DNA of 64,000 nucleotides, taken from positions 55,306,001 through 55,370,000 of the forward strand of contig CM059432.1 in assembly GCA_030390025.1 (NCBI GenBank), read 5' to 3'. The stretch comes from Squalus acanthias. Its lineage: Eukaryota. The position numbers and the translations under genes are program-made. Below the pieces are notes generated by a model. It saw only the letters and a program-made list of their open reading frames with translations, was not told where the DNA came from and made no database searches. Each line of letters starts with the position of its first letter. Within the stretch, counting starts at the first letter, position 1. This document shows positions 1 through 50,097 of this stretch, one piece after another.

Positions 1-1158
1 CCTACTTGATTTAACACAGACTGGAGACTGAACCTGGGACATTTCACCTGCTGACTGGATAAAGTCACTGAGCCACTGGGAAGTCAGTAATGATTATTTT
101 GTGCTTAAACTGAGGAGTTTCAGCATCAGTACCCCATGAAGAACATTAACAATCTTTACTTTCTTTTTGGTATTTCTGTTGAGATTTTTGAAGTGGAATG
201 GGCTCTGGCTGTTTAACCCTAGAAATAAGTTTTTGTAAGAATATATGGGTTACCTGACTGGACCAGACAAATTGCCATTTGTTAGCTAATTAAATACACC
301 ACTTTCCACTTTTCTATTAGTCAAAGGTAAAGGAATATTAAGAATATGGTGATATCCCTAATTATGTGTTCATATCTCTTGCCACTCCCTATTCCATTCT
401 GCAATCTGCGTGCAATACTTTTCAAAGTCACCAATGGTATTCTGTGTAATTTCAATCACCTTTTTCTATCTCCAGAGCATTATCCACTGCCCCACGCCAT
501 CTCCTCTCTCCTCTTTATCAAGTAATATTTGGTTTTTGCTGTCCCATCTTGGCCTCATCTGTCGTCAACAATATTGACCATTCCATTCATTTCCATTTTC
601 CACCTCCAGGGCACCGCTCCTACCTGTCCCAAAGTACTCACAAGATTACAAGATAATTATGGATGAAAATGCTATTCCATTCACCTTGGTTCATCCATCC
701 TAAAAGGCCTTAAAGTTCCCTATTGCAGCATCCAATTGTTTCTTAAATAATTCCAAGTTTTTCACCTCCATTATTCTATCTAGGAATCCATTTCATGTGT
801 TAATCACACTCTCTGTGAAGAACTTCCTGATGTCTATCCTAAACTTGTCTCTCTCAATTTAGTTGAAATAGTTTTCCACATTTAGCTTTTTTCATACCCT
901 TGACTATCTTATATTCCTTGAAGGAGATCACTTTTCAGATGCCTTCTTTCATGGCTGAAAAACCCAAGTCTCTCCTATTGTGCCTGTAGCTCTTTGCTAG
1001 AACAATCCATGACTCCTAGGTCTCACTGTATCTCGTCCAATTGGTTTTTCTTCCCTCCCAACAAAATGATCCAGTGGTGTGACTGTCTGTCCAACATCAA
1101 GTGCTGGATGAGCTGAAATTTCCTACAGCTCAACAAAGACAAGATTGAAACAATCTCA

Positions 1159-3352
1159 ATAGCAAAATACTGCGGATGCTGGAAATCCGAAATAACAACA
1201 GAAAACGCTGGAAAAACTCAGCAGGTCAGGCAGCATCCGTGGAGAGAGAAACAGAGTTAACGTTTCAGGTCGAAGACCTTCCGTCAGAACTGGAAAAAAG
1301 CAGGAAATGAAATAGATTTTAAAGCAAGTTTAGGGCTGGGAAAAGGGGGAGGGGAGGAAAGAACAAAAGAGGTCAGTGATAGGATGGAAAGCAGAAGAGA
1401 TTAAGAGACATTGAGAGACATTAAGAGATATTCAAGGCAAGAGGAGGTGGTAATGGGACATGTTAAGGAACAAAGGATGGCTCTAGATGAAGTGTGAATT
1501 GCGCTGGCAGAATGAAGGACAGCTGCCATGTGGGAGGGAAGAAAAAAAGGCCAAACAAAAAAGTGTGGATAAAAAAAAATATATAAAATAAAAAATATAT
1601 ATATGTGATACGGGCCGGGGTTATGATCTGAAATTGTTGCACTCTATGTTGAGTCCAGAGGGCTGTAGAGTGCTTAATCGAAAGATGAGGTGCTGTTCCT
1701 CGAGCTTACGTTGAGCTTCCGTGGAACAATGCAAGAGGCCGAGGACGGTGAGATCTGAGTGGGAATGGAGCGGTGAATTAAAGTGACAGGCCACTAGGAG
1801 CTCGGGGTCACCCTTACGGACTGAACGGAGGTATTCCGCAAAGCGGTCTCCCAATCTGCATTTGGTCTCCCCAATGTAGAGGAGACCACATCGTGAGCAG
1901 TGAATACAGTATACTAAATTGCAGGAAGTACAAGTAAATCGCTGTTTCACCTGGAAGGGGTGTTTGGGGCCCAGGACAGTGGGAAGGGGGGAGGTATAAG
2001 GGTATGTGTTGCATCTCCTGCGCTTGCACGGGAAGGTGCTGGGCAAAGCGGAAGGGGTGCTGGGGGTGGTAGAGGAGTGGACTAGGGTGTCGCGGAGGGA
2101 GCGGTCCCTGCGGAATGCTGAAAGGGGAGGTGAGGGGAAGATGCGTTTGGTGGTGGGATCACGCTGGAAGTGGCGGAAATGGCGGAGGATGATCCGTTGA
2201 ATGTGGAGGCTGGTGGGGTGAAAGGTGAGGACAAGGGGAACTCTATCGTGGTTCCGGGAGGGAGGGGCAGGGGTGAGAGCAGAAGTGCGGGAGATAGAAC
2301 GGACACGGTCGAGGGCCGTGTCAACCACATTCGAGGGGAATCCTCGGTTGAGGAAAAAGGAAGACATGTCGGAAGCACTGGTATGAAAGGTGGCATCATC
2401 AGAGCAAATGCGGCGGAGACGGAGAAACTGGGAGAATGGAATAGAGTCCTTACAGGAGGCGGGGTGGGAGGAAGTGTAGTCCAGGTAGCTGTGGGAGTCA
2501 GTGGGCTTGTAGTGAATGTTTGTCAATAACCTATCCCCAGAGATGGAGACGGAGAAGTCGAGGAAGGGAAGGGAAGAGTCAAGAGATGGACCATGTGAAG
2601 GTGAGGGAAGGGTGGAAATTGGAAGCATAGTGAATGAAATTTTCTAGTTCAGGGCGAGAGCAGGAGACGGCACCAATACAGTCATCAATGTACCGGAAAA
2701 AGAGGTGAGGGAGGGGACCCGAGTAGGACTGGAACAAAGAGTGTTCCACATATCCCACGAAAAGGCAGGCATAGCTAGGACCCATGCGGGTACCCATAGC
2801 AATACCTTTGATTTGGAGGAAATGAGTGGAGTCAAAGGAGAAGTTGTTCAATATGAGAACAAGTTCAGCCAGGCGGAGGAGGGTGGTGGTGGATGGGGAC
2901 TGGTTGGGCCTCTGTTCAAGGAAGAAGTGGAGCGCCCTCAGGCCATCCTGGTGGGGGATGGAGGTGTAGAGGGATTTACGTCCATAGTGAAAAGGAGGCG
3001 GTTGGGGCCGGGAAACTGGAAACTGTCAAAGTGGCGGAGGGCGTCGGAAGAGTCGCAGATGTGGGTGGGAAGAGACTGGACAAGGGGAGATAAAATAGTG
3101 TCGAGATAGGAAGAGATAAGTTCCGTAGGGCAAGAACAGGCTGAAACGATGGGTCTACCAGGGCAGTCCTGTTTGTGGATCTTGGGAAGGAGGTAGAAGC
3201 GGGCTGTGCGGGGTTGGGGAACTATGAGGTTGGTGGCCGTGGGGGGGAAGATCTCCAGAGGAGATGAGGTCAGTGACAGTCTTGGAAACGCTGGCTTGAT
3301 GTTCGGTAGTGGGGTCATGGTCCAGGTAGAGGTAGGAGGAGGTGTCGGAGAG
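1159..3352 (-). mobile_element. Penelope-like retroelement, 5'-truncated (RT + GIY-YIG), frameshifted
   Basis: ORFs 2938-3318 (FYLLPKIHK..PGRPIVS), 2579-2851 (GIAMG, RYIDD) and 1621-2628 (VYCIHC..LYIGET, CCHH-type GIY-YIG). 14-bp TSD TTGAAACAATCTCA at 1145-1158 and 3353-3366. Sits inside an older L2 fragment. Confidence 0.93.
1255..1291 (-). ncRNA. Minimal type I hammerhead-like motif in the PLE 3' region
   Basis: Minus strand reads AGUU-CUGACGG-AAGGUC UUC GACCU-GAAA-CG-UU-AACU; position 9 of the core is G rather than A. Confidence 0.65.
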
Positions 3353-5756: not shown

Positions 5757-7500
5757 TCTGCCACTTCCCTTCCTTCCCCTAGCCCACTGGGTCAAACTTC
5801 CCCTAAGGTTTCCCCTGCCCTAGCCCTGAACTCTCCTGTTTCTCTCCTATCTCCCCTCATGACCTCTCTGCAATCATCTTGTCCATGAAAGCCTTTTCCT
5901 GCTCCCTCAACCCTATTCCTACTAAACTGCTGACCACCCAACTTCCTTTTCTGGCTCCCAGTTAGCTGATATTGTTAATGTTTCTCTCTCCTCAGGTACT
6001 GTCCCCCTCTCCTTCAAATCTGCCTTCATCACCCATCTCCTCAAAAAAACAACCCTTGTCCCCTCCATCCTTGCAAACTACCGCCTCATCTCCAACCTCC
6101 CTTTCCTCTCCAAAGTCCTTGAACGTGTTGTCATCTCCCAAATCTGTGCCCATCTTTTCCGGAACTCTATGTTTGAATCCCTCCAATCAGGTTTCCGTCC
6201 CTGCCACAGTACCGAAACGGGTCATATCAAAGTCACAAATGACATCCTATGTGACTGTGACAAAGGTAAACTTTCCCTGCTCGTCCTTCTCAACCTGTCT
6301 GCAGCCTTTGACATGGATGACTACTCCATCCTCCTCCAACGCCTCTCCACCGTCGTCCAGCTGGGTGGAACTGCACTCACCTAGTTCCATTCTTACCTAT
6401 CTAATCGTAGCCAGAGAATCACCTGCAATAGCTATTCTTCCTGCTCCCACATCAGTACCTCTGGAGATCCCCAAGGATCTATCCTTGGCCCCCTCCTATT
6501 TCTCATCTACATGCTGCCCCTTGGCGACATCATCCGAAAACACAGCGTCAGTTTCCACATGTACGCTGATGACACCCAGCTCTACCTCACGACCACATCT
6601 CTCGACTCCTCTACTGTCTCTAAATTGTCACATTGCTTGTCCGACATCCAGTACTGGATGAGCAGAAATTTTCTCCAATTAATTATTGGGAAGACCGAAG
6701 CCATTATCTTCGGTCCCCGACACATCTCCGTTCCCTAGCCACCGACTCCATCCCTCTCCCTAGCATCTGTCTGAGGCTGAACCAGACTGTTTGCAACCTT
6801 GGTGTCATATTTGACCCTGAAATGAGCTTCCGACCACATATCTGTGCCTATTTCCACCTCCGTAATATCGCCCATCTCCACCCCTGCCTCAGCTCATTTG
6901 CTGCTGAAACCCTCATCCATGTCTTTGTTACCTCTAGACTTGACTATTCCAATGCACTGCTGGGTGGCCTCCCACATTCTACCCTATGTAAACTTGAGGT
7001 CCTCCAAAACTCAGCTCATGTCCTAACTCGCACCAAGTCCTGTTCACCCATCACCTCTGTGCTCGCTGACCTACACTGGCTCCCGGTTAAGTAACGCCTC
7101 AATTTTAATATTCTCATCCTTGTTTTCAAATCCCTCCATGGCCTTGCCCCCCCCCATATCTGTAATCCCCCCCCCCCCCCCCCCAATATATCTGCACTCC
7201 TCTAATTCTGGCCTCTTGAGCATCCTGATTTTAATCACTCAACCATTGGTGGCCGTGCCTTTAGTTGCCTAGGCCCTAAGCTCTGGAATTCCCTCCCTAA
7301 ACCACTCCGCCTCTCTACCTCTCTTTCTTCCTTTAAGACGCACCTTAAAACCTACCTCTTTGACCAAGCTTTTGGTCACCTGCCCCAATTTCTCCTTATG
7401 TGGCTCGGTGTCACATTTTGTTTTATAACACTCCTGTGAAGCGCCTTGGACATTTTACTTAATTAAAGGTGCTATATAAATACTAGTTGTTGTTGTTGTT
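5757..7500 (+). mobile_element. L2 LINE, 5'-truncated
   Basis: RT fragments (FESLQSGFRPCHSTET, LSAAFD, HMYADDTQLY, SRLDYSNALL, LHWLPV); 3' tail ...GCTATATAAATACTAGTTGTTGTTGTT. Confidence 0.92.
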
Positions 7501-7675
7501 GCAGAATATATCCATTTAGAGGTCAAATGCCCAAACCTTTATGTTTTTTTAATGCTCTGCGGAATGGAACTCGTCCCATCCAGTATCAGCATCAAGAACT
7601 ATGCAGATGAAAGCTCATTAGAGCACCTGCTGTTGCACTAGTGTGACATTTTCCCCACATCAGTCATCCTGTGCC

Positions 7676-9455
7676 TAGAGTCATAGAGTTATACAGCACA
7701 GAAAGAGGCCCTTCAGCCCATCGTGTCCGCGCCGGCCATCAAGCCTTATCTATTCTAATCCCATTTTCCAGCATTTGGTCCGTAGCCTTGTATGCTATGG
7801 CGTTTCAAGTGCTCATCTAAATGCTTCTTGAATGTTGTGAGGGTTCCTGCCTCTACCACCCTTTCAGGCAGTGAGTTCCAGATTCCAACCACCCTCTGGG
7901 TGAAAAAGTTTTTCCTCAAATCCCCTCTAAACCTCCTGCCCCTTACCTTGAAACTATGCCCCCTGGTTATTTTCCCCTCTACTAAGGAGAAAAGTTCCTT
8001 TCTATCTACCCTATCTATGCCCCTCATAATTTTGTACACCTCAATCAGGTCCCCCCTCAGCCTTCTCTTCTCTAAGGAAAACAACCCCAGCCTGTTCAGT
8101 CTCTCTTCATAGCTGAAGCGCTCCAGCCCAGGTAACATCCTGGTGAATCTCCTCTGCACCCTCTCCAATGCAATCACATCCTTCCGATAGTGTGGCGACC
8201 AGAACTGCACACAGTATTCCAGCTGTGGCCTAACTAGCGTTTTGTACAGCTCCATCATAACCTCCCTGCTCTTATATTCTATGCCTTGGCTAATGAAGGC
8301 AAGTATCCCATATGCCTTTTTAACCACCTTATCTACCTGTCCTGCTGCCTTCAGGGATCTATGTACATGCACACCAAAGTCCCTCTGATCCTCTGTCCTT
8401 CCTAGGATCCTACCATTCATTGTGTATTCCCTTGCCTTGTTGGTCCTCCCAAAATGCATCACCTCACACTTTTCAGGGTTAAATTCCATTTGCCACTGTT
8501 CTACCCATCTGACCAACCCGTTTATATTGTCCTGTAGCCTGAGGCTTCCGTCCTCGCTATTTACCACTCCACCAATTTTTGTGTCATCTGCAAACTTACT
8601 GATCATACCTCCTACATTCATATCTAAATCATTAATGTACACTACAAACAGCAAAGGACCCAGCACCGATCCCTGCAGTACACCACTGGACACAGGCTTC
8701 CAGTCACAAAAACAACCTTCGACCATCACCCTCTGCCTCCTGCCACTAAGCCAATTTTGGATCCAATGTGCCAAATTGCCCTGGATCCCATGGGCTCTTA
8801 CCTTCTTGACCAGTCTCCCATGCAGGACTTTGTCAAAAGCCTTACTGAAGTCCATGTAGACTACATCAACTGCACTATCCTCATCCACACACCTAGTCAC
8901 CCCCTCGAAAAATTCAATCAAATTGGTTAGACATGATCTCCCCCTGACAAAGCTATGCTGACTATCCTTGATTAACCCTTGCCTCTCCAACTGGAGACTA
9001 ATTCTGTCCCTCAGAATTTTTTCCAGTAATTTCCCTACCACTGATGTTAGGCTCACTGGCCTGTAATTCCCTGGTTTATCCCTACTACCCTTCTTGAATA
9101 ATGGTACTACGTTAGCTGTCCTCCAGTCCTCTGGCACCTCCCCTGTGGTCATGATGCGGAGATGCCGGTGTTGGACTGGGGTGGACAAAATTGAGAGGTC
9201 GCACAACACCAGGTTATAGTCCAACAGTTTTATTTGAAATCACAAGCTTTCGGAGCTTACTACTCCTTTGTCGGGTGAAGTCTTCACCCGACGAAGGAGT
9301 AGTAAGCTCCGAAAGCTTGTGATTTCAAATAAAACTGTTGGACTATAACCTGGTGTTGTGCGACCTCTCAATTTTGACCTCCCCTGTGGCCAGAGAGGAT
9401 CTGAAAATGTGTGTCAGAGCCCCTGCAATCTCCTCCCTTGCCTCACACAGCAGGC
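7676..9455 (-). mobile_element. CR1 LINE, 5'-truncated, with an open RT frame
   Basis: ORF 7755-~9150 (NYRPVSLTS, DFSKAFD, QGSVLGP, FADDTK). Interrupted at 9152-9376 by a PLE palindrome, after which CR1 sequence resumes. Confidence 0.95.
9152..9376. mobile_element. Short PLE-derived fold-back insertion with paired hammerhead-like motifs
   Basis: 95-bp inverted arms 9186-9280 and 9282-9376 (1 mismatch), 1-nt spacer, ~34-nt unpaired tail; TSD ACCTCCCCTGTGG(T/C)CA at 9136-9151 and 9377-9392. Confidence 0.9.
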
Positions 9456-10569
9456 TGAGTTAAATTGCCAATTAGTGCCAAATTAGGGACAATCGTGCTG
9501 ACAAAGAACTGGACTGAGATTGGCCAAACCCATTTTGTGTCGGATATTAAACAGAAAATGATGGAAACACTTACTTTTCAGGTTTAGAACTGACAAATGG
9601 TCCACACTTGAAATGTTAACTTGTCTTATCTCTCCACAGGGGCTGACTAACCTGCCGAGTGTCTCTGTTATTGTTTCAATATAGAGAGCAGTGCGTATCA
9701 GTGAATGGGAATCATATACATGTGAGAGAGAGAGAGAGAGAGATAAGCTAATTTGATTTGAAACCACAGCATTGACAAATTATCTACTCAAGTACTCATT
9801 CAATTGTTCTTCCATATTTCCTCCCCACCACATTATGCTTCTATATAAACCGAAATCTTTATATATTTCAACCCAGCACATAAGTGCTGTAGTCTATGTT
9901 GAATTAAGTAACAGTAAAAGTGAATCTATCATAGTAGAGTACATTGAAATATTTTCCCAGTAACTTTCAGATTACACAGAGGAATGTTAATAAAGTAGTA
10001 ACTGAGTCATAAACTATGGGACTGCAACCAAAATGGTCAATAAACACATCTGAATCACAAAATAAGAGCATACAGTCCTGAAATCACACCAAGATATATA
10101 TCCATTATAATTATGTATCATGTATGAAGCCCCATGGGGTGGGTTTATTCCATTTAACCCCCTTTTTGCTATGCCAGAAGCTGGCAGTCATTGCAACATG
10201 CGTAGTAGGCCTATGATGATATACACATTATATCAGAATCATTGATCTTTTCATTACTATAAGTTTACCAAATTGTAATCAATAGTTGGTTACTGGGACA
10301 TAGCACAGTCATCATCATGTTGTATTACGTTAATCCAAGGTCTTTCTAAATTTTCCCACCTATAGCCTCTAAACTTTCTCTTTTTCCACGGCACTCTTGT
10401 CTCTCTCTATTTTATTGGTATTGCTATGATCATCATACATGTCAACGTTTGACTCAGCATTATCCATGTTCACAAATAGAGCAGGTTCTTTCATCCTTGG
10501 TGCTGCTCTGTGGTTGCTCCCTCATGTTGTTGCTGCTGTAAGTCATTGAAAGCTGCTGTACACTATAAT

Positions 10570-11602
10570 GATGTGGAGATGCCGGCGTTGGACTGGGGTG
10601 TACAAAAATGAGAAGTCGCACAACACCAGGTTATAGTCCAACAGATTTATTTAATTTTACAAGCTTTCGGAGCGGTTCGCTCCTTCCTCAGGTAGGGTAG
10701 CAGTGAGAGAATCTCCCAGAATTCACAATATAAACACAGAGAAAATCTATTCAAATCTTTCCCTACATCAAAGACACACTAAGAGCACAGCCAAGACAAT
10801 GAGATGTGTCCCAGGGGGTCCAACGTGTCAAAACACCTGCTGGCTGCATATCCTGTCAATTTGTGTTGGTTCTTGTGTTAGTCTTTTTAAAAAAAAAAAA
10901 ACACCTGGAAAGACCGGCCGTGATGTCAAGTCACGTTCTGTATCGTGACATGAACCCGATATCGCGATTGAGGCCATCCTCATGAGTGCGGAACTTGGCT
11001 ATCAGTTTCTGCTCTATGATTTTGCGCTGTCGTGTATCCCGAAGGCCGCCTTGGAGAACGCTTACCCGCAGATCCGAGGCTGAATGCCCCTGGCTGCTTC
11101 ACTTCAGCAGCCAGGGGCATTCAGCCTCGGATCTGCGGGTAAGCGTTCTCCAAGGCGGCCTTCGGGATACACGACAGCGCAAAATCATAGAGCAGAAACT
11201 GATAGCCAAGTTCCGCACTCATGAGGATGGCCTCAATCGCGATATCGGGTTCATGTCACGATACAGAACGTGACTTGACATCACGGCCGGTCTTTCCAGG
11301 TGTTTTTTTTTAAAAAGACTAACACAAGAACCAACACAAATTGACAGGATATGCAGCCAGCAGGTGTTTTGACACGTTGGACCCCCTGGGACACATCTCA
11401 TTGTCTTGGCTGTGCTCTTAGTGTGTCTTTGATGTAGGGAAAGATTTGAATAGATTTTCTCTGTATTTATATTGTGAATTCTGGGAGATTCTCTCACTGC
11501 TACCCTACCTGAGGAAGTAGCGAACCGCTCCGAAAGCTTGTAAAATTAAATAAATCTGTTGGACTATAACCTGGTGTTGTGCGACTTCTCATTTTTGTAC
11601 AC
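10570..11602. mobile_element. 1-kb PLE-derived palindrome (GIY-YIG C-terminus + 3' region, inverted)
   Basis: Arms 10598-11098 and 11106-11602, 7-nt spacer. The + strand 11100-11273 encodes HFSSQGHSASDLRVSVLQGGL..RKIIEQKLIAKFRTHEDGLNRD, typical of a PLE endonuclease end. TSD TGTACACTATAAT at 10557-10569 and 11596-11608. Confidence 0.92.
10658..10694 (-). ncRNA. Minimal type I hammerhead ribozyme motif
   Basis: UAC-CUGAGGA-A-GGAGCG AAC CGCUCC-GAAA-GC-UU-GUA: conserved core, 6-bp stem II, palindromic AAGCUU stem III. The mirror copy on + at 11506-11542 has one stem II mismatch. Confidence 0.75.
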
Positions 11603-12667
11603 TATAATAGCAGTGGTTGCACCAGGAAGGAATGCAGTGGACTTAATTAACCAGAACATATGATTTTAATGTTAAAAAAAATCTGAATGTTCCTGGAGAA
11701 CATGCTTATTTCCCTCTCGAAATGTACCACTAGTTAAGGAGAAGGTGGAGCTGGTGGAGGAATGGGGGAGAGGGGATGATGGTGGCAATAGTGGTGTGAC
11801 ATTTGGAAGGAGTACAGTGCAGCCCTGACTAGACTGAACTTATGGTCAAAGAGACTTGGTTTGATTCCCCTATTTGCTATTGGGCAGTTAAAAAGAGAAA
11901 ATGAAAATTAATTAAAACTTCTTTCTCCCAGTAACCTATTACTTACTGCTACTGGGAGAAAGAACAAAAAAAATGAGTAAATGTCCCCTCTTGTTTTCAT
12001 ATCATAGACTTTTAGTCAGGGCCATTTATGAGTTGTCAACATTTTTGGTGCTGGTTTTTGGAGCTGTGGGTTAGCTTTCATTTGTTTTCTAGGTTGGTGT
12101 GTATGAATGAGAACTTTCTTCTCTTGTTCCTTCTAATCCTCCAGATTTACTTGTACAGCATATTCTTCCTCCTCCCTCCATCCTCATTATTTTGAATTCA
12201 AGACTCAGCACACCATCTCCTACATTAACCCATTCTTTCTCAGAACTTAAAATTAAGCAACTCCTGAGCTCCCTTGGTCTTTACTTTTTCCTACAACTAC
12301 AGGCTTTTAATACCAGTCACTGTGTCTAATCTTTTGTCCCAATAAACTGTTGATGGTGCCTTACACCTTGAACCTTAGCCCTTCACCAAAGTTTCCAATT
12401 TTAAATAAATCCAATGGTACCATTCATAATTCTGAAACTACATCTTAATTTTGAGAAACTACATTGCTGTCCTGTTCTCATGTGAAGCATTCTAGAGTGT
12501 AAAGTAAAAGGTTTATATGATAATATATAAGGAAGAGATTCAACCAGTGGCATCAATGTGACTATAAATTGAAGGTAATTTTAAGAATTGAAACCCTTTG
12601 AACACCAGCATTGTTCTTTAAGTCATGCAGTGGTAACTAGGATGTAGGTGCACTAAATGAGAAACAC

Positions 12668-13843
12668 TGGGGTCAATTTTGACCCCGAGCAGGTCTTGGG
12701 GAGTTGGGGGAGCAGGGCGAATGCAAAACACACTCGCTGGCCTAAGTTTCAGGCCTGGGGTATTTTAACTCTAGGCCCTCATTTAAGTGCAGGTGGGAAG
12801 AGGGCACAGAAAGGCTGCTGGCAGGAGAAGATCGGGCAGCCTTGGCCGCCCACCAGCTTGCAGGTAAGTGGCAGGGAGTGGGTTTTGGGAGGGTCTCGCA
12901 GGAGGGAAGGGAGTGAGTCCAGGGTAGGAGAGGCTGCCTCTCTTGAGTACTGCGTACAGTTTTAGTCTCCTTATTTAAGGAAGGATATACTTGCATTGGA
13001 GGCAGTTCAGAGATGATTCACTTGGTTGATTCCTGAGATGAGGGGGTTGACTTATGAAGAAAGGTTGAGCAGGTTGGGCCTATACTCATTGGAATTTAGA
13101 AGAATGAGAAGTGATCTTATTGAAACATATAAGATACTGAGGGGGCTCGACAAGGTAGATGCAGAGAGGATGTTTCCCCTTGTGGGGAAATCTAGAACTC
13201 GGGGGCATAGTTTCAGAATAAAGGGTCGGCCTTTTAGAACTGAGATGAGGAGGAATTTCTTCTCTCAGAGGGTCGTAAATCTGTGGAATTCTCTGCCGCA
13301 GAGAGCTGTGGAGGCTGGGTCATTAAATACATTTAAGGTGGAGATAGACAGATTTTTGCAAGATAAGGGAGTGAAGGGTTATGGGGAGCGGCAGGGAAGT
13401 GGCTTTGAGCCCAAGATCAGCCATGATCTTATTGAATGGCGGAGCAGGCTCGAGGGGCCAAGTGGCCTATTCCTGCTCCTATTTCTTATGTTCTTATGTT
13501 TTTCCTTGTGGGGCCCGGAGCAGGAGTCCTGATCATCCTGGCCCCACAATGAATATTTTCACTTTCCGGAAGGGTCTCTTCATCCTTCCCACCAGCTTAC
13601 GATCTGCTTCACGCCAGGTGGAGAAACCGGGGTGGCTTCCCCGCTCAGGCCCCAGTTAAAATGGCATTGGGGTCCTATTGATGTCAAAGGACTCTGATTA
13701 ACATTTATTAATGATGCTCCCTCCCGAGTCCAGTAGCCGCCTCATCAGTTGTGTTAAACTAGGAACGAAGCAGGAAATGGAGCTGCTCCATCTTAGCTGT
13801 TTGCTGCCTCCATTCCCACCCAGCAGGGAGAGTTAAAATTTCC
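12668..13843. mobile_element. MITE interrupted by a CR1 fragment
   Basis: Ends GGGGTCAATTTTGAC / GTTAAAATTTCCC with a non-coding interior. Confidence 0.55.
12943..13498 (+). mobile_element. CR1 LINE 3' fragment
   Basis: ORF 13026 (YEERLSRLGLYSLEFRRMR..FFSQRVVNLWNSLP); tail TTCTTATGTTCTTATG. Confidence 0.92.
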
Positions 13844-18531: not shown

Positions 18532-19260
18532 GGGCCGTATTTTCCGCGTGCGGAGGCCTCCAATCTGGAAAAAATCTACACATTTACCTGAGGGCTCCCG
18601 AGATGCATATAGTTCCGATGCTGGGCCTCTCCAACAACAAGTGCACAGGGCCTACGTATCCCAGGGGTGCATGCGGGCCATGGGAAGCCAATCAAAGAAG
18701 GGAATTTCCCTTCATACACTTGACAGATAGACCTGTCAAATATATGAATGGAGATCACCCCAAAAACACATTAAAACATTAAATAATTTTTTTTTTAAAA
18801 TCACATTTTTAAATTAGTTAAAATTACAATAAATTAAATATTTTAAACAAAAATTCAATTTTTTGAATAAAATTAAAGTTTTTTACGGGGCTAAAAATAA
18901 ACGTACCTTTTTTTAAAAAAAAAAGTATTTTTAAATGATAAATGAGTGAAAAGAAAACATTCTTTTTTTTAACTTTTTTTCCAACTCTTATCCTGGTAAA
19001 AGCAGGCCTTATGCCTGCTTTTACCAGGCATAAGAATTCTAAGGGTTTTCTACGGGCGGAGGGTCTCCAGAAAGCGGAACTATCCGCCCACAGAGGCCCT
19101 TCTCCAGGGCAGGCGCCCGGTCTGTCAAGAGCATTCTTGACAGATCGGAAATGCCGGTTTTCAGCGCATGCGCTGTGCATGCCTGAAACCGGCGTTTCCG
19201 ATGTCCCTACGGGTGTGTACACAGCGCATACACACCCATAAGGATTGGAATATCCGGCCC
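18532..19260. mobile_element. MITE family B
   Basis: TIR GGGCCGTATTTTCC / GGAATATCCGGCCC, AT-rich centre; near-identical inverted copy at 50248-50991. Confidence 0.85.
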
Positions 19261-19558: not shown

Positions 19559-21106
19559 GCAAGAGTTATTTTTATGGATTCAAAAAAAAATAATTTTGTC
19601 CACGTTCCACACATCATTTTCCAGGCAGCGGGGAGGGCAGGCAACTATCTCCCAGGTCTCTGCCAATCTCTCTCAAGACAAAAGATGTTAGCACTGGGAA
19701 ATGGAACAAGTTCCCATTTTGGGCATTCCAAAGTCAGGTTCAGCACGGTTAAATGCAGAGTACAGCTCCCTTTACTCTCTCTCAGCAATATGTTATGGCA
19801 CCAACCTCGAAAGAATACCCCCTATAGCACGAATGTGATACTTGCTAGATCAGCCAAGTAGATTAATCAAAATGATATAGGTGCAGACGTTAGAGATAAA
19901 TCAACTTTTAATAATATTGACAGAAAGTACAAGCAAGTCTATACATCTATGTACTTACAAGTAGGATATCCATTAGGGTCTAAGACTACTCCAATCCATG
20001 TTAGATCTCAGCACTGAATATCAAATAACTACTGAAAACAGTTCATATTTATACACCTCAAAGACAGTGCATAAGAAACGTCAGATGACTAGCTCTGAGA
20101 TTATTGTCTTGTGATCTTTATGGGTCATATGCTACTACATCAGTAGATGGCAATGTTGCACCGCACACACTCCATTCTCACTGGAATGTGGAAGACGTTT
20201 CATTTCTTAAAAGATAAGACAATTTTGCACGGTTATAAGCATTACACTCTTTCCAGGAGAATGGCAACTTAAATGTTGCAGGTAATTTTGACTTTGTGTG
20301 ATAGTGTAAAATGGTTGATAGCGAATCAGCAACCTTTTACAACTCTCCTGATTTTTGTTTCAATTGACATCATGGATTATATCTTGTGCAATTTCACGGA
20401 TTTAGACTTGAACAAAATGAACTCTGGGTATTATTACCTACATTATTTGCACAGCTAGTTTAGTCAGTTTGTTCAGTAAAATTCCACTCCTGCATATCAC
20501 TCACTCTGTAGAATGCACATGACATGATGAAATTTAATAACACCTTCAGCAAATGCCTGAAGTGAGTATCAGTAACAGCAACACACTGATTTTTCCCCCA
20601 TATATCCACCTTGACCTCATAAAAGCAGAAACACATTTAAAAGTTAAAATTTATAGATATTTTGACTGGCACGGAGATTATTACAAATATATCTTATGAG
20701 GCTGATTCACAGCTTTGTTGCACAGTCTCACCTGTGACGGTGTGTGTCGCATCCTCTATTTCTACACCTGCTGCAAAGGTGTTTTTAGTCAGATGTTGTT
20801 ACTCTTGCAGGAAAAACATCTCACTGACATTTTTGCTGCATCTGAGACAGTTCTTTTTTCTCAAGGGCATAAAACAGATAAATAAAATTAACAAACAGCA
20901 GCACCAGGAGAGGCGCATGCTGCCTCCAGTAATTATACACAATCTCCTGCCTCATTACCAGCTTAAAGCAAAACCACCATCAAAACAGCTGTCCTAATTA
21001 GCTTTATCCAATGAGCAGCTGCACCATAAAACCTGGAAGGTCCCAGATTCCATTCCCAAGCTGTTGAGTTTCATGATCTCAGCTGGAACCAGTGATAGGG
21101 GTGCTA

Positions 21107-21221
21107 CACAAACGCAGAATACGGTAGAGATGCTGGAAATCTGAAATAAAAACAGAAAATGCTGGAAATACTCAGCAGGTCAGGCAGCATCTGTGGAGAG
21201 AGAAACAGAGTTAACGTTTCA
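21107..21221 (-). mobile_element. PLE 3'-terminal mini-insertion inside a SINE-like repeat
   Basis: Matches 1160-1267; 12-bp TSD ATAGGGGTGCTA at 21095-21106 and 21222-21233. Confidence 0.85.
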
Positions 21222-21322
21222 ATAGGGGTGCTAAAGTTGGCCTCAGTGCCCACAGGTTAGGGAGGCTACTAACAGCCAGGGTTGCTGCTTCTGAACGCTA
21301 TTGAGTTACCTGTGCTGGTAAT

Positions 21323-42704: not shown

Positions 42705-44493
42705 GGCTGTGATTTCGCCATCGGAGGTGGGATCGCGGCGGGAGAGGTCGTTGACGGGTCCCGGTCCCGCTCCCATCTCCAGCAGCTCTGTGAAAAGGAT
42801 TTTCCCCTGATTGGGCTTGTTAAGCCCGCCCAACGAGTTTCCCAGCCAATTTTTTAAAAAAAAAGCGGGTCTGATGACGTCATTTGATGACTTGTCATCA
42901 GCCGGTTTCCTTAATGGGACCATGGCCACATTCATTTTGACAGTTGTTCTGTCAGTGTTCTACAGCATTGAGCTGCTACAAACACTGACAATGACTGCAC
43001 AAAGGTGCATGGCTACACCCAGGCTCTCACATGACTCCCTCCATATGCTTATGGAGAGAGTCACAGCACACAGGGAGATTCTCTTCCCTTCCAATGAGCG
43101 GAAGATTCCTCCCCAGGACACCAACCTGGTGCACATTGCACAGGAGGACACAAGCAGGGATGTCGTCAGGAGGACCTGGCTGCAGTGGTGCAAACCTTTC
43201 AATGGTCTCAGTAGATCACAAAACGTTACTGCAAAGCCACACCCAACCTCATCCTGCTGTGCCACTCATCACATCCCCATCACTCTGCCTCCCCTACAGT
43301 ACTCCTGCACATCTTTACTCACACCAACTTACCTTGCACCTCCACCCATCCCTCTCTATCTACATTATCACTTCCCCATCTCAGGAGCCACCCCTCACAT
43401 TCACCCTCATCCTAGTGCAATCATACCAACTAACAACACACGGGTAGGCACTTGGGTGTTTTATGCAATGTTCATGTGAAGTTTCTGTTAATGTGTTGTC
43501 AAACATTAAAATCTATATTTTCAACACTTTACCTTATTGGACAGATCTGTGCTCACTTTTGGAAGTGTCTTAGTGAGTTCCAGTGACTGTTGAGACATAA
43601 CTTCCCCACCCCCCCCGCCCCCCAATTGTGATGAGTGTGAAAGGAATGGCTTGGGCATTGTAGGGATGCTTTATGGTGCTGGTGTGGGGTGGTGCCAACC
43701 TGGCGCATCATGTGGCAGCCAGGGTGTACAGCGTTAAGTGAAGTAAATCTGGTCATGGTGAGGCCATCACTGGCCTCCCGGGCAGCAATGTGGTCGGCTG
43801 CTGATGGCCTGTGTCCTGTGCAGCATCAGGTGATTGCGGAGAAGGTTGGTGTTGTTGGTGGTGTTGTTGGTGATGTTGTTGGTGTGCCTGGTGATGTTGG
43901 TGTTGGGGCTGATCGTGGAGGGATTCAGAGGACCAAGGTGAGAGTTTTTCCAAGGGCACCGATGTTGCTGGAATAGATGGCAGCTGAAGTTGAGATGACA
44001 GAAGTCAATGGTGAGAGAGCTTGCTCCAAGGAGGTGACAGTGGATAGAGAGTTTACTCCAAACATTTCCAAACTACATACAGCTCAAAAGTGTCTTCCAA
44101 GTCCTGAAGGCTCAAGCTTCTGACATTGGAAAGTGACCAGCTGTGAAATGGTAGCTTTCATACCACTTTTGCAGCTGTCACCTATTCACAGCAATGGGGA
44201 GACATAGAGAACCCAACCTACTTACCTGACGTGATTTCTGAACGACATGAAACTCGTTAAAAAAGTGGTAAAATAGAAATAGGCCGGCAAAATAGTAGTT
44301 AACAAGCATTTAACTATTTTAAATGCCTCCTCGCCGCTTGGTGTCGGGCCTATTCTGAAATCGCAGACCTGACACTTTGGAAAACAACACGGAGGCGGGT
44401 TCAGAGCGGGTTCCCAACCCGCTGTCAATCATTTCGATTTTGACAGCGGACTCGTCTCCAACCCGTACTCTGAGCACCGGCAAAATTCAGTCC
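42705..44493 (+). mobile_element. Non-autonomous Harbinger derivative with Myb remnant
   Basis: TIR GGCTGTGATTTCGCC / GGCAAAATTCAGTCC; PRLSHDSL..RRTWLQWCKPFNGL; inverted homologs at 45.5-47.3 and 53.9-55.6 kb. Confidence 0.82.
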
Positions 44494-45540
44494 ACAGTGT
44501 TGATGATAAGCTCTGAAATCTGATATCACTAGTGAGGGCAGGAAATAAATGTTTCTAAATAGGGTAAGTTCATGATTGCGCTTACTCTGTTTTGGAAACC
44601 GTTTGGAGGTGGGTGGGATGATATGTAATCTGTGGGAGCTGTGTGTTGATAGGAATGCAGAGGATTTTGGGCATGGTGGATTCTCAGGAATAGGCGGGGG
44701 TGGTGGGTGGGGGGGTGGTGAGGGTTCTGTTGAAAGGAACATTAACGCAGTAGGGAGAGCTGGTTCTCAGGAGACGGTGTCCAGATTCAGATGGTGGTGA
44801 ATGACTCTTCTCTGGCTGCTGGCAGAGGGTTTTTCTTGGTAGCCTCTTCTTGTTTCTGTTGGTCACTTTCATCCCCTTTGCCTTCTGTTGCCTTCCTCTT
44901 TGTGTCCTCCATGACGCATCCTCTTTTCGATGCAAACTTATGCAGCAGACCATTACTTTCCTTGGCACTCCTGCTGGACCGTGCTGCAAAGCCCACCAAA
45001 CTTACTGAAGCCCCCAAAACTTGACTTCAACATTCCAATCGTGTGCTGTAATATAATCTTGTGACAGAATGGGCCCCATTTTATTGTAGCTGTGCTGGTG
45101 TCCCAGGGAACACCGGTGTCAACAGCCAAGGCTACAGGTGGGAGCCTTTATCACCCAGATTGAGACTGGACACTTGCCCTTTGTCTTAATAAAGTGGTAG
45201 CATTGTGGAATTCTTTAATGGATGCCGTATCATCTTCATATTAAAAATTCCACATTGTAAAAAAATTGTTATATTCGGAGGTAACAGCAGGGCCCCTCTA
45301 ACAGTAATCAATCCCTCATTGGACCTGGTACTGTTAGGGCTTTCATTGGCCCAGAAAGGGACCTATGCCTGTTCTCAGCAGATGTAAGTCCCTGTTGGAC
45401 CTATCAGGGGCACATCTGGCAGGATTCCCAGGACAGCTCCAAACTGCTACTGTGAAGTAATTTCTACCCTATCATTTTTTTTCTCTGATTTCCAATTGTT
45501 TTGTCTTTTACGTTTTTTTAAACATGTAAAGAGAATTGCA

Positions 45541-47263
45541 GGCCGGAATTTTGTTGGGGGGGGGGGGGGGGGTCAGCAGGCGTGATGGGTAGCAAGTCGG
45601 GACCCCGCTGTGAACCCGCTGCCACGCACCTTTCCCAATGTCGGGTCTGTCAGTGCTGAACAGACCCGACACGCAGCGGCCGGGGACCCAATTCAGGTAA
45701 TTAGTGGCTTACTTAGAGCCACTTAAAAATGATTTTCAGCTTACCTTTGGCATTTGACAGCTCACCCATTGGGTCCACACTGGTCGTGGACCATGTCTGT
45801 CAAGCTGAGGCGATAGTTCAGTGGCCATTGAATCAGCTGTTGAGTTGACAGCTTCAAATGTAAAGTAAAAGCTCCCACCTTACAGAGATATCTTCCCTCA
45901 GCCACAAACTCTTCCTCACTGCATTTCCACAACAGATTCACCATGCTGCAAGTCATTACACAAGGCTCCATCCAGTCTGACCTCATTACATCTCTTACCA
46001 TTGACAGATCGCTTCTGTCATCTCTACTTCACCTGCCATCTATTCCATCAGCATGGGTGCCCTTTATACTCTCTCACCTTGGTCCTCAGAATCCCATCAC
46101 GATCAGCCCCAACACCAGCAGCACCAACAACAGCACCACCAACCTTCTCTGCAATCAACTGATGCTACACAGGACAGAGGGCATCCGCACCCGACCACAT
46201 TGCAGCCCGGGAGGCATGGGATGGCCTCACCATAGCCACATTTACTTCACTTAATGCTGTACACCCTGGCTGCCATATGATGCGCCAGGTTGGCACCACC
46301 CCACACCAACACAAACACCATAAAGCATCCCTACCATGCCCAAGCCATTCCTTTCACACATGACCATTGCGGGGGGTAGCGTTATGTATCACCATTCACT
46401 GCAACTCACTAAGCCACTTCCAAGGGTGTACACAAATCTGTCCAAGAATCCAAAGTATTGAAAATAAAGGTTTCAATGTCTGACACCACATTAACAGAAA
46501 CTTTACATGAACATTGCATAAAACACCCAAGTGCCTACCCTTGTGTGTTGTTAGTTGGTATGATTACACTAGGATGAGGGTGAGTGTGAGGGGTGGCTAG
46601 TGAGATGGGAAAGTGATAATGTAGATAGAGAGGGATGGGTGGAGGTCCAAGGTAAGTTGGTGTGAGTAAGGGTGTGCAGGAGTAGGGTAGGGAAGGCAGA
46701 GTGATGGGGATGTGATGAGTGACACAGCAGGATGAGGTTGAGTGTGGCTTTGTACTAACATTTCGTGATCTACTGAGATCATTGAAACATTTGTGGCACT
46801 GCACCCAGGTCCTCCTGACCACATCCCTGCTTGTGCCCTCCTCTGCAATGTGCAACCAGGCTGTGTTGATCTCCTCGGGAGTGCTCTCCCACCCATGGGA
46901 AGGGAAGAGGACCTCCCTGCATAAGCATATGGAGGGAGTCATGGGAGAGCCTGGTGTAGCCCTGTGCCTTTGTGCAGTCATTGTCAGTGTTTGCAGCACC
47001 TCAATGCTGTAGAACACTGATAGCACAAATATCAAAATAAATTTGGACATGGTCCCTTTAAAGAAACCGGCTGAAGACGCGCCATCAAATGAAGTCACCA
47101 GACCCGCTTCCTCTAATTGGCTGGGAAATGTGCTGGGCGGGCTTAACAAGCCCCATCAGCAGAAAGTCATTTCACAGAGCGGGATCGGGAGCCAGCAGCG
47201 GGGTCGGGACCTACCATTGACATCGCCCGCCACGGACCCGCCGAAGTTAGTAAAATCCTGGCC
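45541..47263 (-). mobile_element. Non-autonomous Harbinger derivative with Myb remnant
   Basis: TIR GGCCGGAATTTT / AAAATCCTGGCC; TSD GCA; AWLHIA..RRTWVQCHKCFNDL. Confidence 0.85.
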
Positions 47264-48674
47264 GCAGTCTGAGAGCTTTAGAGTATACATTTGAATGCAA
47301 AAAGCTAATAAGTGGAACAGAATGACAATATAAACATTTGTCTAATTGTTTAGTATGGTTTCAGTAATAAAAAGAAAAAATCAGTTGAGAGTGCAATACA
47401 TTGGCTTTGTATGTACTTATGGTATCACGCAGAGCATAATCATGCAATACACTTTTTATTCAACTGTGTAACATAATTTTTTTAGTGATTTTCACCAATT
47501 TTTTTTCTTTCTTTCAGATTTTTATCTGCTTTTGAAAAGTCTGTATTAATTACCTGCCATTTTTTCCAGCACTAAAATTGAAAATGCAGAGCTCTAGATG
47601 TGATAGAGTGCAGCAGGATGTAACAGCCTTACAATTCTTGCTGATGTAAAGCAAAAATTAAGTTGTTTGCCTTGGCTTTATAACAAATGGAATAGCTATG
47701 TTAAATTGGATTGTGGTTCTCTGAAGGTCTATTGTCCTTGAAAAGTGCTTTGCATTGATTTTTTTTTGGTCCAGTTGTTGAATGATGGAATAGGCTAATG
47801 TATTTCTTGTGCTTTTCAAATAGCTGCTCTCAGATATTAATGTTCAAAAGGTCAGTGGATGTTCCCTTATAATTTATGTATTTTAAACTTGGACATAAAT
47901 CAACATTATATGAGATAAAAGAAATAGAAGAAATCGAGAGGCCATTTTCCATTATTGGTCAGCTGGAGACAGCTGAAACCTTGCACTGAGGGCTTTGCTC
48001 CCATTGGGGTCTGAGCCTGCCTAATCTTCCAGGGTCAGGTCTCATTATCCATGCATAATGAACTCCTATGTGTAATAGGCCAGTGATCGGGAGCTTACTG
48101 TTTTATGAACAGGATATCCAGTGCTGATGCAGGGATTGAAAGATCTGCAGTAGCAGTTTAAAGCGGACCATGTTTTTGTGATCAGCATATTCAAGACATA
48201 TTAAAATATCACTAGAATGCTGCAGAGACATGGATGTGCCTCAAGATTTGAAGATGCAGCAGCAGAAGTACTGTTAGAAGTATGGTGGAGGAGTGTTGCC
48301 TGGTTTGACTTTCCAGGGCACTTCCAACACAGGAGAGCAGTACGGTGCTTGGGAATCAGGTGCTCCAGGTTAATGATGTTTCCAACATCCAAAGGATCTG
48401 GCTGCAAATTCATAACAAGTTTAGAGACCTCACCAAATCGGCCAAGGTAAAACTACTCACCATTACCATATACCAAGCAGATGGACATTGTATGCATGTC
48501 ACAAATTATTTCCTTCCACTCAGACTATCTTGCAGCCCTTTGAATGCTTACAATGCACACCCATTCTGAAGCTGCAATTTATACCTATACCTAACTCTTG
48601 CCACACCAATATTCTTCATCCAAAGAATCTTTCTAATAAAATATAATTGCATGAATGTATGTACATGTAATGAC

Positions 48675-48711
48675 AGTTCTGACGAAAGGTCATTGACCTG
48701 AAACGTTAACT
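48675..48711 (+). ncRNA. Minimal type I hammerhead ribozyme motif
   Basis: AGUU-CUGACGA-A-AGGUC AUU GACCU-GAAA-CG-UU-AACU: intact core, 4-bp stem I, 5-bp stem II, palindromic AACGUU stem III. Confidence 0.78.
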
Positions 48712-48811
48712 CTGTTTCTCTCTCTCTCCACAGATGCTGCCTGACCTGCTGAGTATTTCCAGCATTTTCAGTGTTTATTTCAGATTTCCAGCATCCACAG
48801 TATTTTGCTTT
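48678..48811 (+). mobile_element. PLE 3'-terminal mini-insertion carrying a hammerhead motif
   Basis: Reverse complement of ~1161-1290; TSD TGTAAT(G/C)ACAGT at 48666-48677 and 48812-48823. Confidence 0.85.
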
Positions 48812-50097
48812 TGTAATCACAGTAATGATGGTCTGCAGAATGACCACTTGGGTGTCACTGTACTCCTGACTGTTTCAGCCTCTCAACTCCTTTTCTCAGC
48901 TTGCAAGCAAGGGGGTGCTTACAGAAGGGAGCAGACACACATGGGTGCAGGCTCCCATAGCATTAAGCCCTGAGTTCCTTCAAAGAGGACGTCCCAAGAA
49001 TCATTGGCAGGGAATGGGGGCGGGGGGAGTGGGAGGTTAAAATCTGAAGTCTCCATGAAGTTGACTGATCTACTAAATGTTTCCAATATTTTCTGGTTTT
49101 GTTCTAGTACTAGCCTTCTCGTATTCTTTTCTCTCTCTTACTCACTCGCACACTGACTGCTCCAAATATATTAAAACACAATACCATGTCATACAGTATA
49201 TTCTCATGCAAGAAAAGTTTGAAGATTTCATGCAGCCAGAAACCTAACATACGTTCTTACTCTCTTTTTTAGGTGCCCTACAAAAAGCATTCACAGCTCC
49301 TAGTGGCTTCCAAGAAGCCAGCTCCTCAGTACCCCTATCTCACTCACTCCACCTATCACAAGCATCAGCACCGGTACATCCATCCCACAGGATTGAGGTA
49401 GTCAGTTTGAGATGGGCACACCAGATGATACACAGAATAAGAGTGAGCAGCAGCAGGTAGCAAAGACAGTGGAGGAAGAGGAATCTATTTACTGAAGGGT
49501 CAGCTCATGTTCTTCCTCAGTTGCAAAGCCCTAGGATTTTGACATCACGGCAACTGCAATTAAAAATATATCTGAGCAACAACATTTCTACCATCTTTAA
49601 AGGATGTGCCAAACACTCTGCAAGATCTAATAGTGAGTGTGAAAGAGTCCACAATGGCACATCTGTGAGGTCATGCAGGAAGCTTTCTGTTCACCTCAGG
49701 ACTATGGACCACTTTGAAACTGCAGGACTATCTGCAGTGCAGCTCCCAGTGAGAGAGGTCCTAAGGTCAGCCACAATATCTTTTGTAAATACTCTGATTG
49801 CTGCTTTGCTCCAAAAAGCTATCTTATATGGTTTCAACATGCAAAGAACTATTATGCAGGCATCAACTACCTTCCAGGGGTCGTCTTCCACACAGATCAG
49901 CTGACATATTGAAGGAGTACCCAGCACTGGGGAATCTCTGAAGTAGAAACAGATGAGACTGTTCCGCTAAAGAAGACACTATATCAGCCCACCCTAGGTC
50001 AAATAACAGAAGAGGTGGTAGAAAGCAGATAGCACCAGGCAGCCACTGTAGTAGCAAACATGGCATAGCCAGTGGCAGGGCCACCCCATGGCTCACC

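What the first reader, a model, noticed from the sequence alone, without database searches (positions are those of the whole stretch)
9136..9392. 225-bp minimal version of the same architecture: tail + hammerhead hairpin, no coding sequence
Seen: the same tail (TGATG(C/T)GGAGATGCCGG(T/C)GTTGGACTGGGGTG) and terminal sequence as the 1-kb palindrome 1.2 kb away, but a diverged subfamily. It has 95-bp arms, a 1-nt spacer, and a 16-bp TSD (1 mismatch) inside a CR1 ORF. The fold-back point lies only 3 nt upstream of hammerhead stem I. Two independent insertions with the same geometry point to a mechanism rather than an accident. Inference: either a regular product of PLE integration or a non-autonomous hairpin retroelement. 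The cores are variant (CCGACGA on +, CCGACAA on -).
Basis: partly seen in the sequence, partly recalled or inferred. Interest (0 to 1): 0.7.

Follow-up and report, generated by a model that had tools for sequence, protein, structure and literature searches.

The report
Tiny palindromic Penelope retroelement insertion
This is a real but ordinary stump of a very abundant Penelope-like jumping gene, laid down as two back-to-back copies of its ribozyme-bearing end with the one-sided "tail" already described for such elements, and no sign was found that this short form is a family of its own.

Summary
In detail: 95-nt head-to-head arms (1 mismatch), a 1-nt spacer, a one-sided tail and a minimal hammerhead in each arm, inserted in a CR1 ORF. 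One correction: the duplication is probably 13 nt and perfect, with a 37-nt tail, not 16 nt with a mismatch. Inverted truncated copy, 30-40-nt tail, TSD and opposite-strand hammerheads are described Penelope-like element (PLE) features. Public contigs argue against a discrete 225-bp family. Depth 25 nt left of this centre is at most about 8 single-copy equivalents in one run and 0 in three. Sibling copies read on unfolded with the canonical CTGACGA core. Six other head-to-head junctions lie at scattered positions. Those tables were cut and no genome was held, so a preferred stop zone near the hammerhead is not excluded. Likely mechanism (inferred): both nicked target strands prime reverse transcription on one RNA at two sites, and the two cDNAs are joined head-to-head. 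In 2 of 2 palindromes the target resembles the RNA at the tail-less start site. The scan reported similar short palindromes before, in this genome and another shark genome (unchecked notes).

The parts
9136..9148 (.).
9149..9185 (-). PLE 'tail' (34 nt from 9152; probably 37 nt from 9149), on this side only; ends at or just past an ATG on the minus strand
   Evidence: boundary from translations of two other copies, P0012 and P0096
9186..9280 (-). Left arm: antisense-oriented copy of the last 95 nt of the pLTR
9240..9278 (-). Minimal type-I hammerhead motif, core CCGACAA (U4C and G8A), predicted inactive
   Evidence: descriptor scan; activity untested
9281..9281 (-). 1-nt spacer; on the minus strand it is the native A that precedes CTTCAC in sibling copies, so the left arm is 1 nt longer at its 5' end
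   Evidence: loose-end consensus before 9306 in X1 and X2
9282..9376 (+). Right arm: sense copy of the same 95 nt, no tail
9284..9322 (+). Minimal type-I hammerhead motif: stem I 9284-9287 with 9319-9322, core CCGACGA (U4C), extra A before a 5-bp stem II, palindromic AAGCTT in place of stem III, predicted cut after 9318
   Evidence: features as in PMC4209133; Rfam gave no match at gathering score
9377..9389 (.). Right target-site duplication; its first 11 nt match the element's own continuation (start of the tail) at 8 positions
7755..9135 (-). Host CR1-type LINE, RT ORF downstream of the insertion
9377..9457 (-). Host LINE upstream of the insertion, 5'-truncated at about 9457
   Evidence: loose ends behind 9457 in all 4 runs
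10557..11608 (.). Neighbouring 1-kb insertion of the same family: 13-nt duplications 10557-10569 and 11596-11608, tail to about 10602, arms meeting at spacer 11099-11105
11100..11273 (+). C-terminal end of the PLE ORF (GIY-YIG region) in the right arm of the 1-kb insertion; 6 of the 7 spacer bases are native His-Phe codons

Best explanation
A one-off, severely 5'-truncated insertion product of an abundant endonuclease-positive Penelope-like retrotransposon of a shark-type genome, built during integration, not copied from a 225-bp master. Inferred steps: (1) the GIY-YIG endonuclease nicks both target strands about 13 nt apart; (2) each 3' end anneals by a few bases to one uncleaved pLTR RNA and primes reverse transcription, one at the inner start site (tail-less arm) and one 34-37 nt further out (arm with tail); (3) both cDNAs stop almost together just upstream of hammerhead stem I (RNA end or stall); (4) the two cDNA ends are joined head-to-head and filled in. 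Shown: anatomy, duplication, family identity, scattered junctions. Inferred: steps 1-4. The confidence given is for 'ordinary PLE integration product'; for two-strand priming rather than snap-back it is about 0.55.
For: Family: the sister palindrome shares 105 nt at 90% and encodes the last 55 aa of an ORF 94% identical to a shark RT protein whose relatives carry GIY-YIG. Architecture in print: inverted pLTR, 31-bp tail and 8-10-bp TSD (PMC3846280); inverted 5'-truncated copy and 30-40-bp tail at one end (PMC8557442); hammerhead pairs on opposite strands 100-700 bp apart (PMC4209133). In vitro, a Poseidon PLE cuts and extends both target strands, starts at two RNA sites that bound the tail, and uses uncleaved RNA (PMC11167929); depth at 9256 is 67.2 in X2 (single copy 7.94) and 0 in X1, X7, X9, against 367,204 (X2) and 119,895 (X1) at 9304. 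Loose ends before 9306 (20 contigs in X1, 31 in X2) continue as native sequence with core CTGACGA, not as a mirror. X9 record 25 follows 9282-9356 and runs on 12 letters unlike the mirror. Seven of 12 shown junction rows (6 distinct junctions) are head-to-head, with one arm 14, 27, 36, 38, 42 or 52 nt and the other 47-96 nt. Of 11 shown joints that land in the big element's left end, 5 are at the tail tip (10568-9) and 5 at the inner site (10601-10611). Target resembles the RNA at the inner site in 2 of 2 palindromes: 8 of 11 (1.1% of window positions match as well in any of 7 registers) and 7 of 7 (0.065%). In the 1-kb copy neither arm is a subset of the other: the tail is on one, 6 extra native bases on the other.
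Against: tables are cut (12 of 51 junction rows, 15 of 62 joints, 24 of 904 loose ends shown), depth is not copy number, and X1 was read to about 55%. The depth bound covers only copies at least 90% like this one, not same-centre copies of the commoner stem-II variant. One other junction also has an arm starting 1 nt before stem I, at about 15 copy equivalents in both X1 and X2. A solo copy of a second PLE family also starts at stem I (48674). So truncation may not be random. The in vitro paper reports priming without homology to the cut DNA, unlike the microhomologies here (n = 2, noticed after the fact). Later deletion at the centre of a longer snap-back palindrome could also give the 6 extra bases.
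Confidence: 0.85

Rival explanations
1. Same PLE origin, but the mirror half arises by snap-back: one cDNA starting at the tail tip folds on itself and is copied back until it anneals to the other target end at the inner site (self-priming, as proposed in PMC3846280).
For: Both arms share the rare U4C base and are almost symmetric; in this element the right arm is a subset of the left arm plus tail; microhomology at the tail-less end fits annealing of a copy-back strand; PMC3846280 argues for self-priming.
Against: A 1-nt loop with no native complementarity at the turn is hard to prime; in the 1-kb copy the tail-less arm has 6 native bases that the tailed arm lacks; several other junctions are strongly asymmetric; both strands are extended in vitro.
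Confidence: 0.3
2. A discrete non-autonomous hairpin retroelement: a transcript of the palindrome ends in a sense arm plus single-stranded tail, is primed at the tail by the PLE protein and copied whole, so the centre is inherited.
For: Mechanistically possible from the anatomy (inference); X2 has depth 67.2 at 9256, including a variant contig of depth 23.3, more than one copy would give; other junctions have 5-16 copy equivalents, one of them in two samples.
Against: Upper bound of about 8 copy equivalents in X2, none in three other runs; siblings are unfolded; six other junction positions; both hammerhead cores depart from the sibling consensus; the target matches the element's continuation at the tail-less end, as direct priming predicts.
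Confidence: 0.1
3. A MITE or other DNA-transposon derivative with long terminal inverted repeats.
For: Short, non-coding, almost fully palindromic, flanked by a duplication.
Against: One end carries a 34-37-nt tail outside the inverted repeat; the duplication is 13 nt; the arms are the hammerhead-bearing end of an RT/GIY-YIG element.
Confidence: 0.01
4. A sequencing or assembly artefact (fold-back chimeric read).
For: Perfect palindromes are a known long-read artefact (own knowledge); no contig shown bridges this insertion's junctions.
Against: Target-site duplication, one-sided tail, an arm mismatch, a clean empty site with an open frame and unique flanks that are not mirrored.
Confidence: 0.02

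Closest known systems
Endonuclease-positive Penelope-like elements with inverted pLTR and tail (Adineta vaga Pen2a and Pen2, Arkhipova et al. 2013, PMC3846280: passages and Discussion read; general scheme in Craig et al. 2021, PMC8557442: passages read)
   Same: Head-to-head inverted, 5'-truncated pLTR copy; 30-40-nt tail at one end only; TSD; palindrome at the inverted junction.
   Different: Here nothing but the two pLTR ends is left (no ORF between), the arms are almost equal, and the TSD is 13 nt (8-10 nt in the rotifer examples).
PAc, Poseidon-type PLE of Anolis carolinensis (Frangieh et al. 2024, PMC11167929: main text parts 1-2 of 4 read; supplementary PDFs gave figure labels only)
   Same: Two 3' termini bounding a tail; hammerhead upstream of them; hammerhead kept intact in the inserted copy, as expected if uncleaved RNA is the template.
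   Different: PAc primes without homology to the cut DNA and prefers AT-rich sites; here both targets resemble the RNA at the inner start site and this target is C-rich. The PAc ORF starts at stem II; here the likely start ATG lies at the tail tip (inferred, not shown).
[quoted passage not shown]
   Same: 4-bp stem I, extra nucleotide before stem II, palindromic residue in place of stem III, pairs on opposite strands.
   Different: Cores carry U4C (both arms) and G8A (left arm). U4C is reported to lower activity considerably in vitro (PMC3088659, passage read). Stem II is 5 bp.
Non-LTR retrozymes (bioRxiv 10.64898/2026.07.22.740005: part 1 of 5 and passages read)
   Same: Short, non-coding, hammerhead-bearing, PLE-derived.
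   Different: Retrozymes are head-to-tail tandem units with at least two same-strand hammerheads; this is a single head-to-head pair.

Membership tests
Endonuclease-positive Penelope-like elements | Autonomous partner with one ORF: RT plus C-terminal GIY-YIG | tested here: met
   Indirect. The 225-bp insert has no ORF. The sister palindrome (90% over 105 nt) encodes 55 aa, 94% identical to P0001 (RVT_1 hit); P0004 (85%) has a GIY-YIG hit.
Endonuclease-positive Penelope-like elements | pLTR with a minimal type-I hammerhead motif | tested here: met
   Own descriptor: 4 hits in the window, 0 in each of 20 shuffles; local fold shows stems I and II. Rfam: 0 matches at gathering score.
Endonuclease-positive Penelope-like elements | Inverted 5'-truncated copy joined head-to-head | tested here: met
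Endonuclease-positive Penelope-like elements | 30-40-nt tail at one end | tested here: met
   34-37 nt, left side only
Endonuclease-positive Penelope-like elements | Target-site duplication | tested here: met
   13 nt perfect, or 16 nt with 1 mismatch; empty site seen in paralogues
Penelope/Poseidon clade (as against Neptune and others) | RT phylogeny | not tested
   No tree was built; no named reference PLE proteins were fetched.
Hammerhead ribozymes | Self-cleavage (as a dimer or protein-assisted) | not testable with these tools
   Bench assay needed; cores deviate from consensus.
Non-LTR retrozymes | Head-to-tail tandem units, each with a same-strand hammerhead | tested here: not met
   No tandem array in 7000-13000; hammerheads are on opposite strands.
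Non-LTR retrozymes | Circular RNA intermediate | not testable with these tools
   Only contigs were available.
   Depth at 9256: 67.2 in X2 (8.5 single-copy equivalents, an upper bound), 0 in X1, X7, X9; 1 copy in the window.
   6 distinct junctions shown are scattered, 1 of them has an arm starting at stem I; 39 of 51 rows not shown; no genome.
MITE / DNA transposon | Terminal inverted repeats flush with both duplications | tested here: not met
   One end has the tail outside the inverted repeat.

The most novel reading that the evidence does not exclude
Fold-back products of this PLE pile up at a preferred stop just upstream of hammerhead stem I and, once made, some are transcribed and re-inserted whole, primed at their single-stranded tail: a low-copy class of non-autonomous hairpin retroelements. 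Junctions at 5-16 copy equivalents, the recurrence of arm starts at stem I and the microhomology at both ends would then be an in vivo footprint of how PLEs prime on both target strands.
Probability: 0.12. Interest if true: 0.6.

Novelty: new member of a known kind. Interest (0 to 1): 0.25.

Why it matters
As a single locus it matters little: it is one stump among a very large number of copies of a known kind of element. Its value is as a clean record of PLE integration, whose inverted and tailed products are still unexplained (PMC8557442 says so). Very abundant, young shark families would let one count arm lengths and junction microhomologies genome-wide and so decide between two-strand priming and snap-back. 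The target-RNA microhomology seen in 2 of 2 palindromes differs from the homology-free priming reported in vitro and is cheap to test. If whole hairpins were shown to re-transpose, that would be a new variant of non-autonomous PLE.

Tried and rejected
No assembly is held for this window, so the genome-wide plot of fold-back positions could not be made. Rfam at gathering score: 0 matches. A 22-nt family motif found nothing in metagenome, viral or prokaryote collections. A protein search with a translation across the centre found no candidate (30-97 aa only). No RNA holder was listed; X9 is only guessed to be RNA, so nothing is said about expression. Idea that target sites are DNA hairpins: rejected; the small empty site folds at -8.1 kcal/mol, matched by 9% of 2,000 random 56-mers. 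The big empty site was off by one base; corrected it gives -4.8, not re-scored against background. Joints landing at 11106 (2 rows of table 5) were set aside as an edge effect of the reference. Five of the 12 shown rows of table 5c were dropped as not head-to-head (3 stay on one arm, 1 A-run gap, 1 flank-to-tail). Full-length relatives (best 120 of 2,677 listed; 22 N-termini printed) did not show the tail fused to the ORF start, so 'tail ends at the start codon' stays an inference. Look-ups of earlier notes by sequence, by relatives and by one word set found nothing. Paper searches for a description of this minimal form in sharks or of twin priming in PLEs listed none by title or abstract start; the library lacks most subscription papers, including the older Penelope papers by Evgen'ev and Arkhipova (recalled, not seen), and Repbase/Dfam could not be searched.

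Full report
Observation. The feature is as described. Left arm 9186-9280, spacer T9281 and right arm 9282-9376 form a 95-bp inverted repeat with one mismatch. A tail (9152-9185) lies outside the left arm only. Direct repeats at 9136-9151 and 9377-9392 agree at 15 of 16 positions. The host is an RT ORF on the minus strand, of CR1 type by my recall of its C-terminus. Its frame is open once the insert and one repeat are removed, and contigs of paralogous LINE copies read across the empty site in three runs. A scan of the window finds only two palindromes with arms above 16 nt: this one and the 1-kb one.

Boundary correction. 9136-9148 equals 9377-9389 exactly. Three fetched proteins happen to contain a translation reaching the tail tip. 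Two of them (P0012, P0096) have residues that fit the bases at 9148-9151 as element sequence; the third (P0018) leaves the element a few bases earlier. The duplication is therefore more likely 13 nt, with a 37-nt tail, and the 'mismatch' copied from the RNA. The other three short PLE insertions with a visible duplication in the window have 13, 12 and 12 nt. This rests on two translations and is not proven.

Identity. The tail and terminal part match the 1-kb palindrome at 90% over 105 nt. That neighbour encodes the last 55 residues of an ORF; 19 of 32 candidates passed the search, all named ones from sharks, the best 94% identical. P0001 has an RT hit and P0004 a GIY-YIG hit. Both arms of the small element hold a minimal type-I hammerhead motif (own descriptor: 4 hits in the window, 0 in 20 shuffles; Rfam none). 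The cores are CCGACGA and CCGACAA. Sibling contigs have the canonical CTGACGA, so U4C is a derived change that both arms share and G8A is confined to the left arm. U4C lowers activity in vitro (PMC3088659, passage). The predicted cut is after 9318; the insert extends 36 nt upstream of it, so the template was not cleaved RNA.

What is known. Arkhipova et al. 2013 (PMC3846280; passages and Discussion) describe an inverted pLTR, a 31-bp tail on one of the inverted pLTRs, 8-10-bp TSDs and palindromes at head-to-head junctions, and propose self-priming. Craig et al. 2021 (PMC8557442; passages) give this as the typical PLE layout and call its origin undefined. Cervera and de la Pena 2014 (PMC4209133; parts 1-2) report minimal hammerheads in pLTRs, with pairs on opposite strands 100-700 bp apart. 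Frangieh et al. 2024 (PMC11167929; parts 1-2; supplements gave only labels, and their images may bear on priming homology) show that a Poseidon PLE cuts and extends both target strands, starts at two RNA sites that bound the tail and needs no hammerhead cleavage. Non-LTR retrozymes are tandem, not inverted (bioRxiv 10.64898/2026.07.22.740005; part 1 and passages; its supplements are closed).

Test of the discrete-family idea. No genome was held, so I laid contigs of 4 of 24 listed runs on 9240-11135 at 90% likeness. Single-copy flank depth was 14.3 (X1) and 7.94 (X2). Summed depth over the shared end was 2.6-3.3 million; this is not a copy number but shows a very abundant family. At 9304 it was 119,895 (X1) and 367,204 (X2). 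At 9256, on the left arm 25 nt from the centre, it was 67.2 in X2 and 0 in X1, X7 and X9. Any close copy with this centre must cover that base, so there are at most about 8 copy equivalents in X2. Contigs that leave the reference before 9306 (20 in X1, 31 in X2) continue as native upstream sequence, not as a mirror. That consensus also shows that the spacer is the next native base of the left arm. Seven of the 12 junction rows shown (of 51) are head-to-head, six distinct, with arm pairs of 14/71-72, 27/71-80, 36/75-96, 38/71-73, 42/47-49 and 52/55-71 nt. Fold-backs thus occur at many places, symmetric and asymmetric.

Results against this reading. The bound applies only to copies at least 90% like this one, X1 was read in part, and the tables are cut. 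The 36-nt junction has its other arm starting 1 nt before stem I and stands at about 15 copy equivalents in both X1 and X2; three others stand at 5-10. A solo copy of a second PLE family at 48674 also begins at stem I, while a third copy of that family begins inside the motif. A preferred stop zone at the hammerhead and low-level re-copying of junctions are therefore open. No contig shown bridges this insertion's own junctions, so its presence in other animals is not shown.

Mechanism. The layout TSD - tail and arm (antisense) - arm (sense) - TSD is what results if both nicked target strands prime on the RNA, one at the tail tip and one at the inner site, and the two cDNAs are joined at their ends. 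Of 11 shown joints that land in the big element's left end, 5 fall at the tail tip (where the reference element also ends) and 5 at 10601-10611, two termini as in vitro. In both palindromes the duplication begins with sequence like the element's own continuation at the inner site: 8 of 11 and 7 of 7 bases, matched by 1.1% and 0.065% of window positions when 7 registers are allowed. This was noticed after the fact, n is 2, and it differs from the homology-free priming reported in vitro. In the 1-kb copy, 6 of 7 spacer bases are the native His-Phe codons of the tail-less arm, so neither arm can be a plain copy of the other, unless the centre was trimmed later. In the small copy the right arm is a subset of the left, which fits either model, though a 1-nt turn is hard to prime. 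I put two-strand priming at about 0.55 and snap-back at about 0.3. All of these steps are inferred.

Earlier notes. The scan's notes (unchecked) hold a similar verdict for five 200-215-bp palindromes in another shark genome (e1-7858806), which also gave me the identifier of the 2013 paper and the wording that the mirror half is built anew at each insertion. Notes on this genome report fold-back and truncated hammerhead copies (e1-7790103, e1-7789890). They are leads, not support; my reading before seeing them was already 75% for an ordinary PLE product.

Verdict. Interest 0.25. The most novel reading left open, re-transposing hairpins from a preferred stop at stem I, has about 0.12 probability.

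Noticed in passing
window 10557-11608: The 1-kb palindrome is probably recent or polymorphic: long contigs in X1, X2 and X7 (another species) stop aligning at 10569, the last base of its duplication, and run on for 1,143, 1,143 and 749 letters that do not lie on the laid stretch, as an empty allele would (the letters were not shown).
   Followed up: partly
window 1157-3228 (minus strand): A longer, decayed copy of a second PLE family: RT and GIY-YIG-region similarity (28-45% to P0022 and P0001) at 1648-3228 and a 3' end with a hammerhead-like motif at about 1157-1292.
   Followed up: partly
window 48666-48823: Solo 140-nt 3' end of the second PLE family with an intact minimal hammerhead (core CTGACGA); it starts at stem I, and its 12-nt duplication (1 mismatch) overlaps the first 4 bases of the element.
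   Followed up: partly
window 21095-21233 (minus strand): Third copy of the second PLE family, truncated inside the hammerhead, with a perfect 12-nt duplication.
   Followed up: partly
junction 10638 to 9302 (other loci): One asymmetric head-to-head junction stands at about 15 single-copy equivalents in two samples; one arm begins 1 nt before stem I. Either a hot spot, a duplicated locus or a re-transposed junction.
   Followed up: no
junction 10654 to 9322 (other loci): The 16 letters between are themselves palindromic around one base, which suggests another symmetric mini-palindrome with arms of about 60 nt, centred near the predicted hammerhead cut, at about 10 copy equivalents in X2.
   Followed up: no
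window 18992-19028, 50359-50392, 50481-50515: Short perfect hairpins (15-16-bp stems, 4-5-nt loops), two of them with the same stem, inside a dispersed repeat.
   Followed up: no
window 42863-55479: Several long inverted matches of 85-96% between copies of a dispersed repeat at about 43-44 kb, 46-47 kb and 54-55 kb.
   Followed up: no
proteins P0002, P0013, P0015, P0018, P0019: Annotated shark gene isoforms (XRCC5, PPP1R12A-like, FAM210B, septin 5a, FAM204A) contain the translated end of this PLE, that is exonised copies or annotation errors.
   Followed up: no
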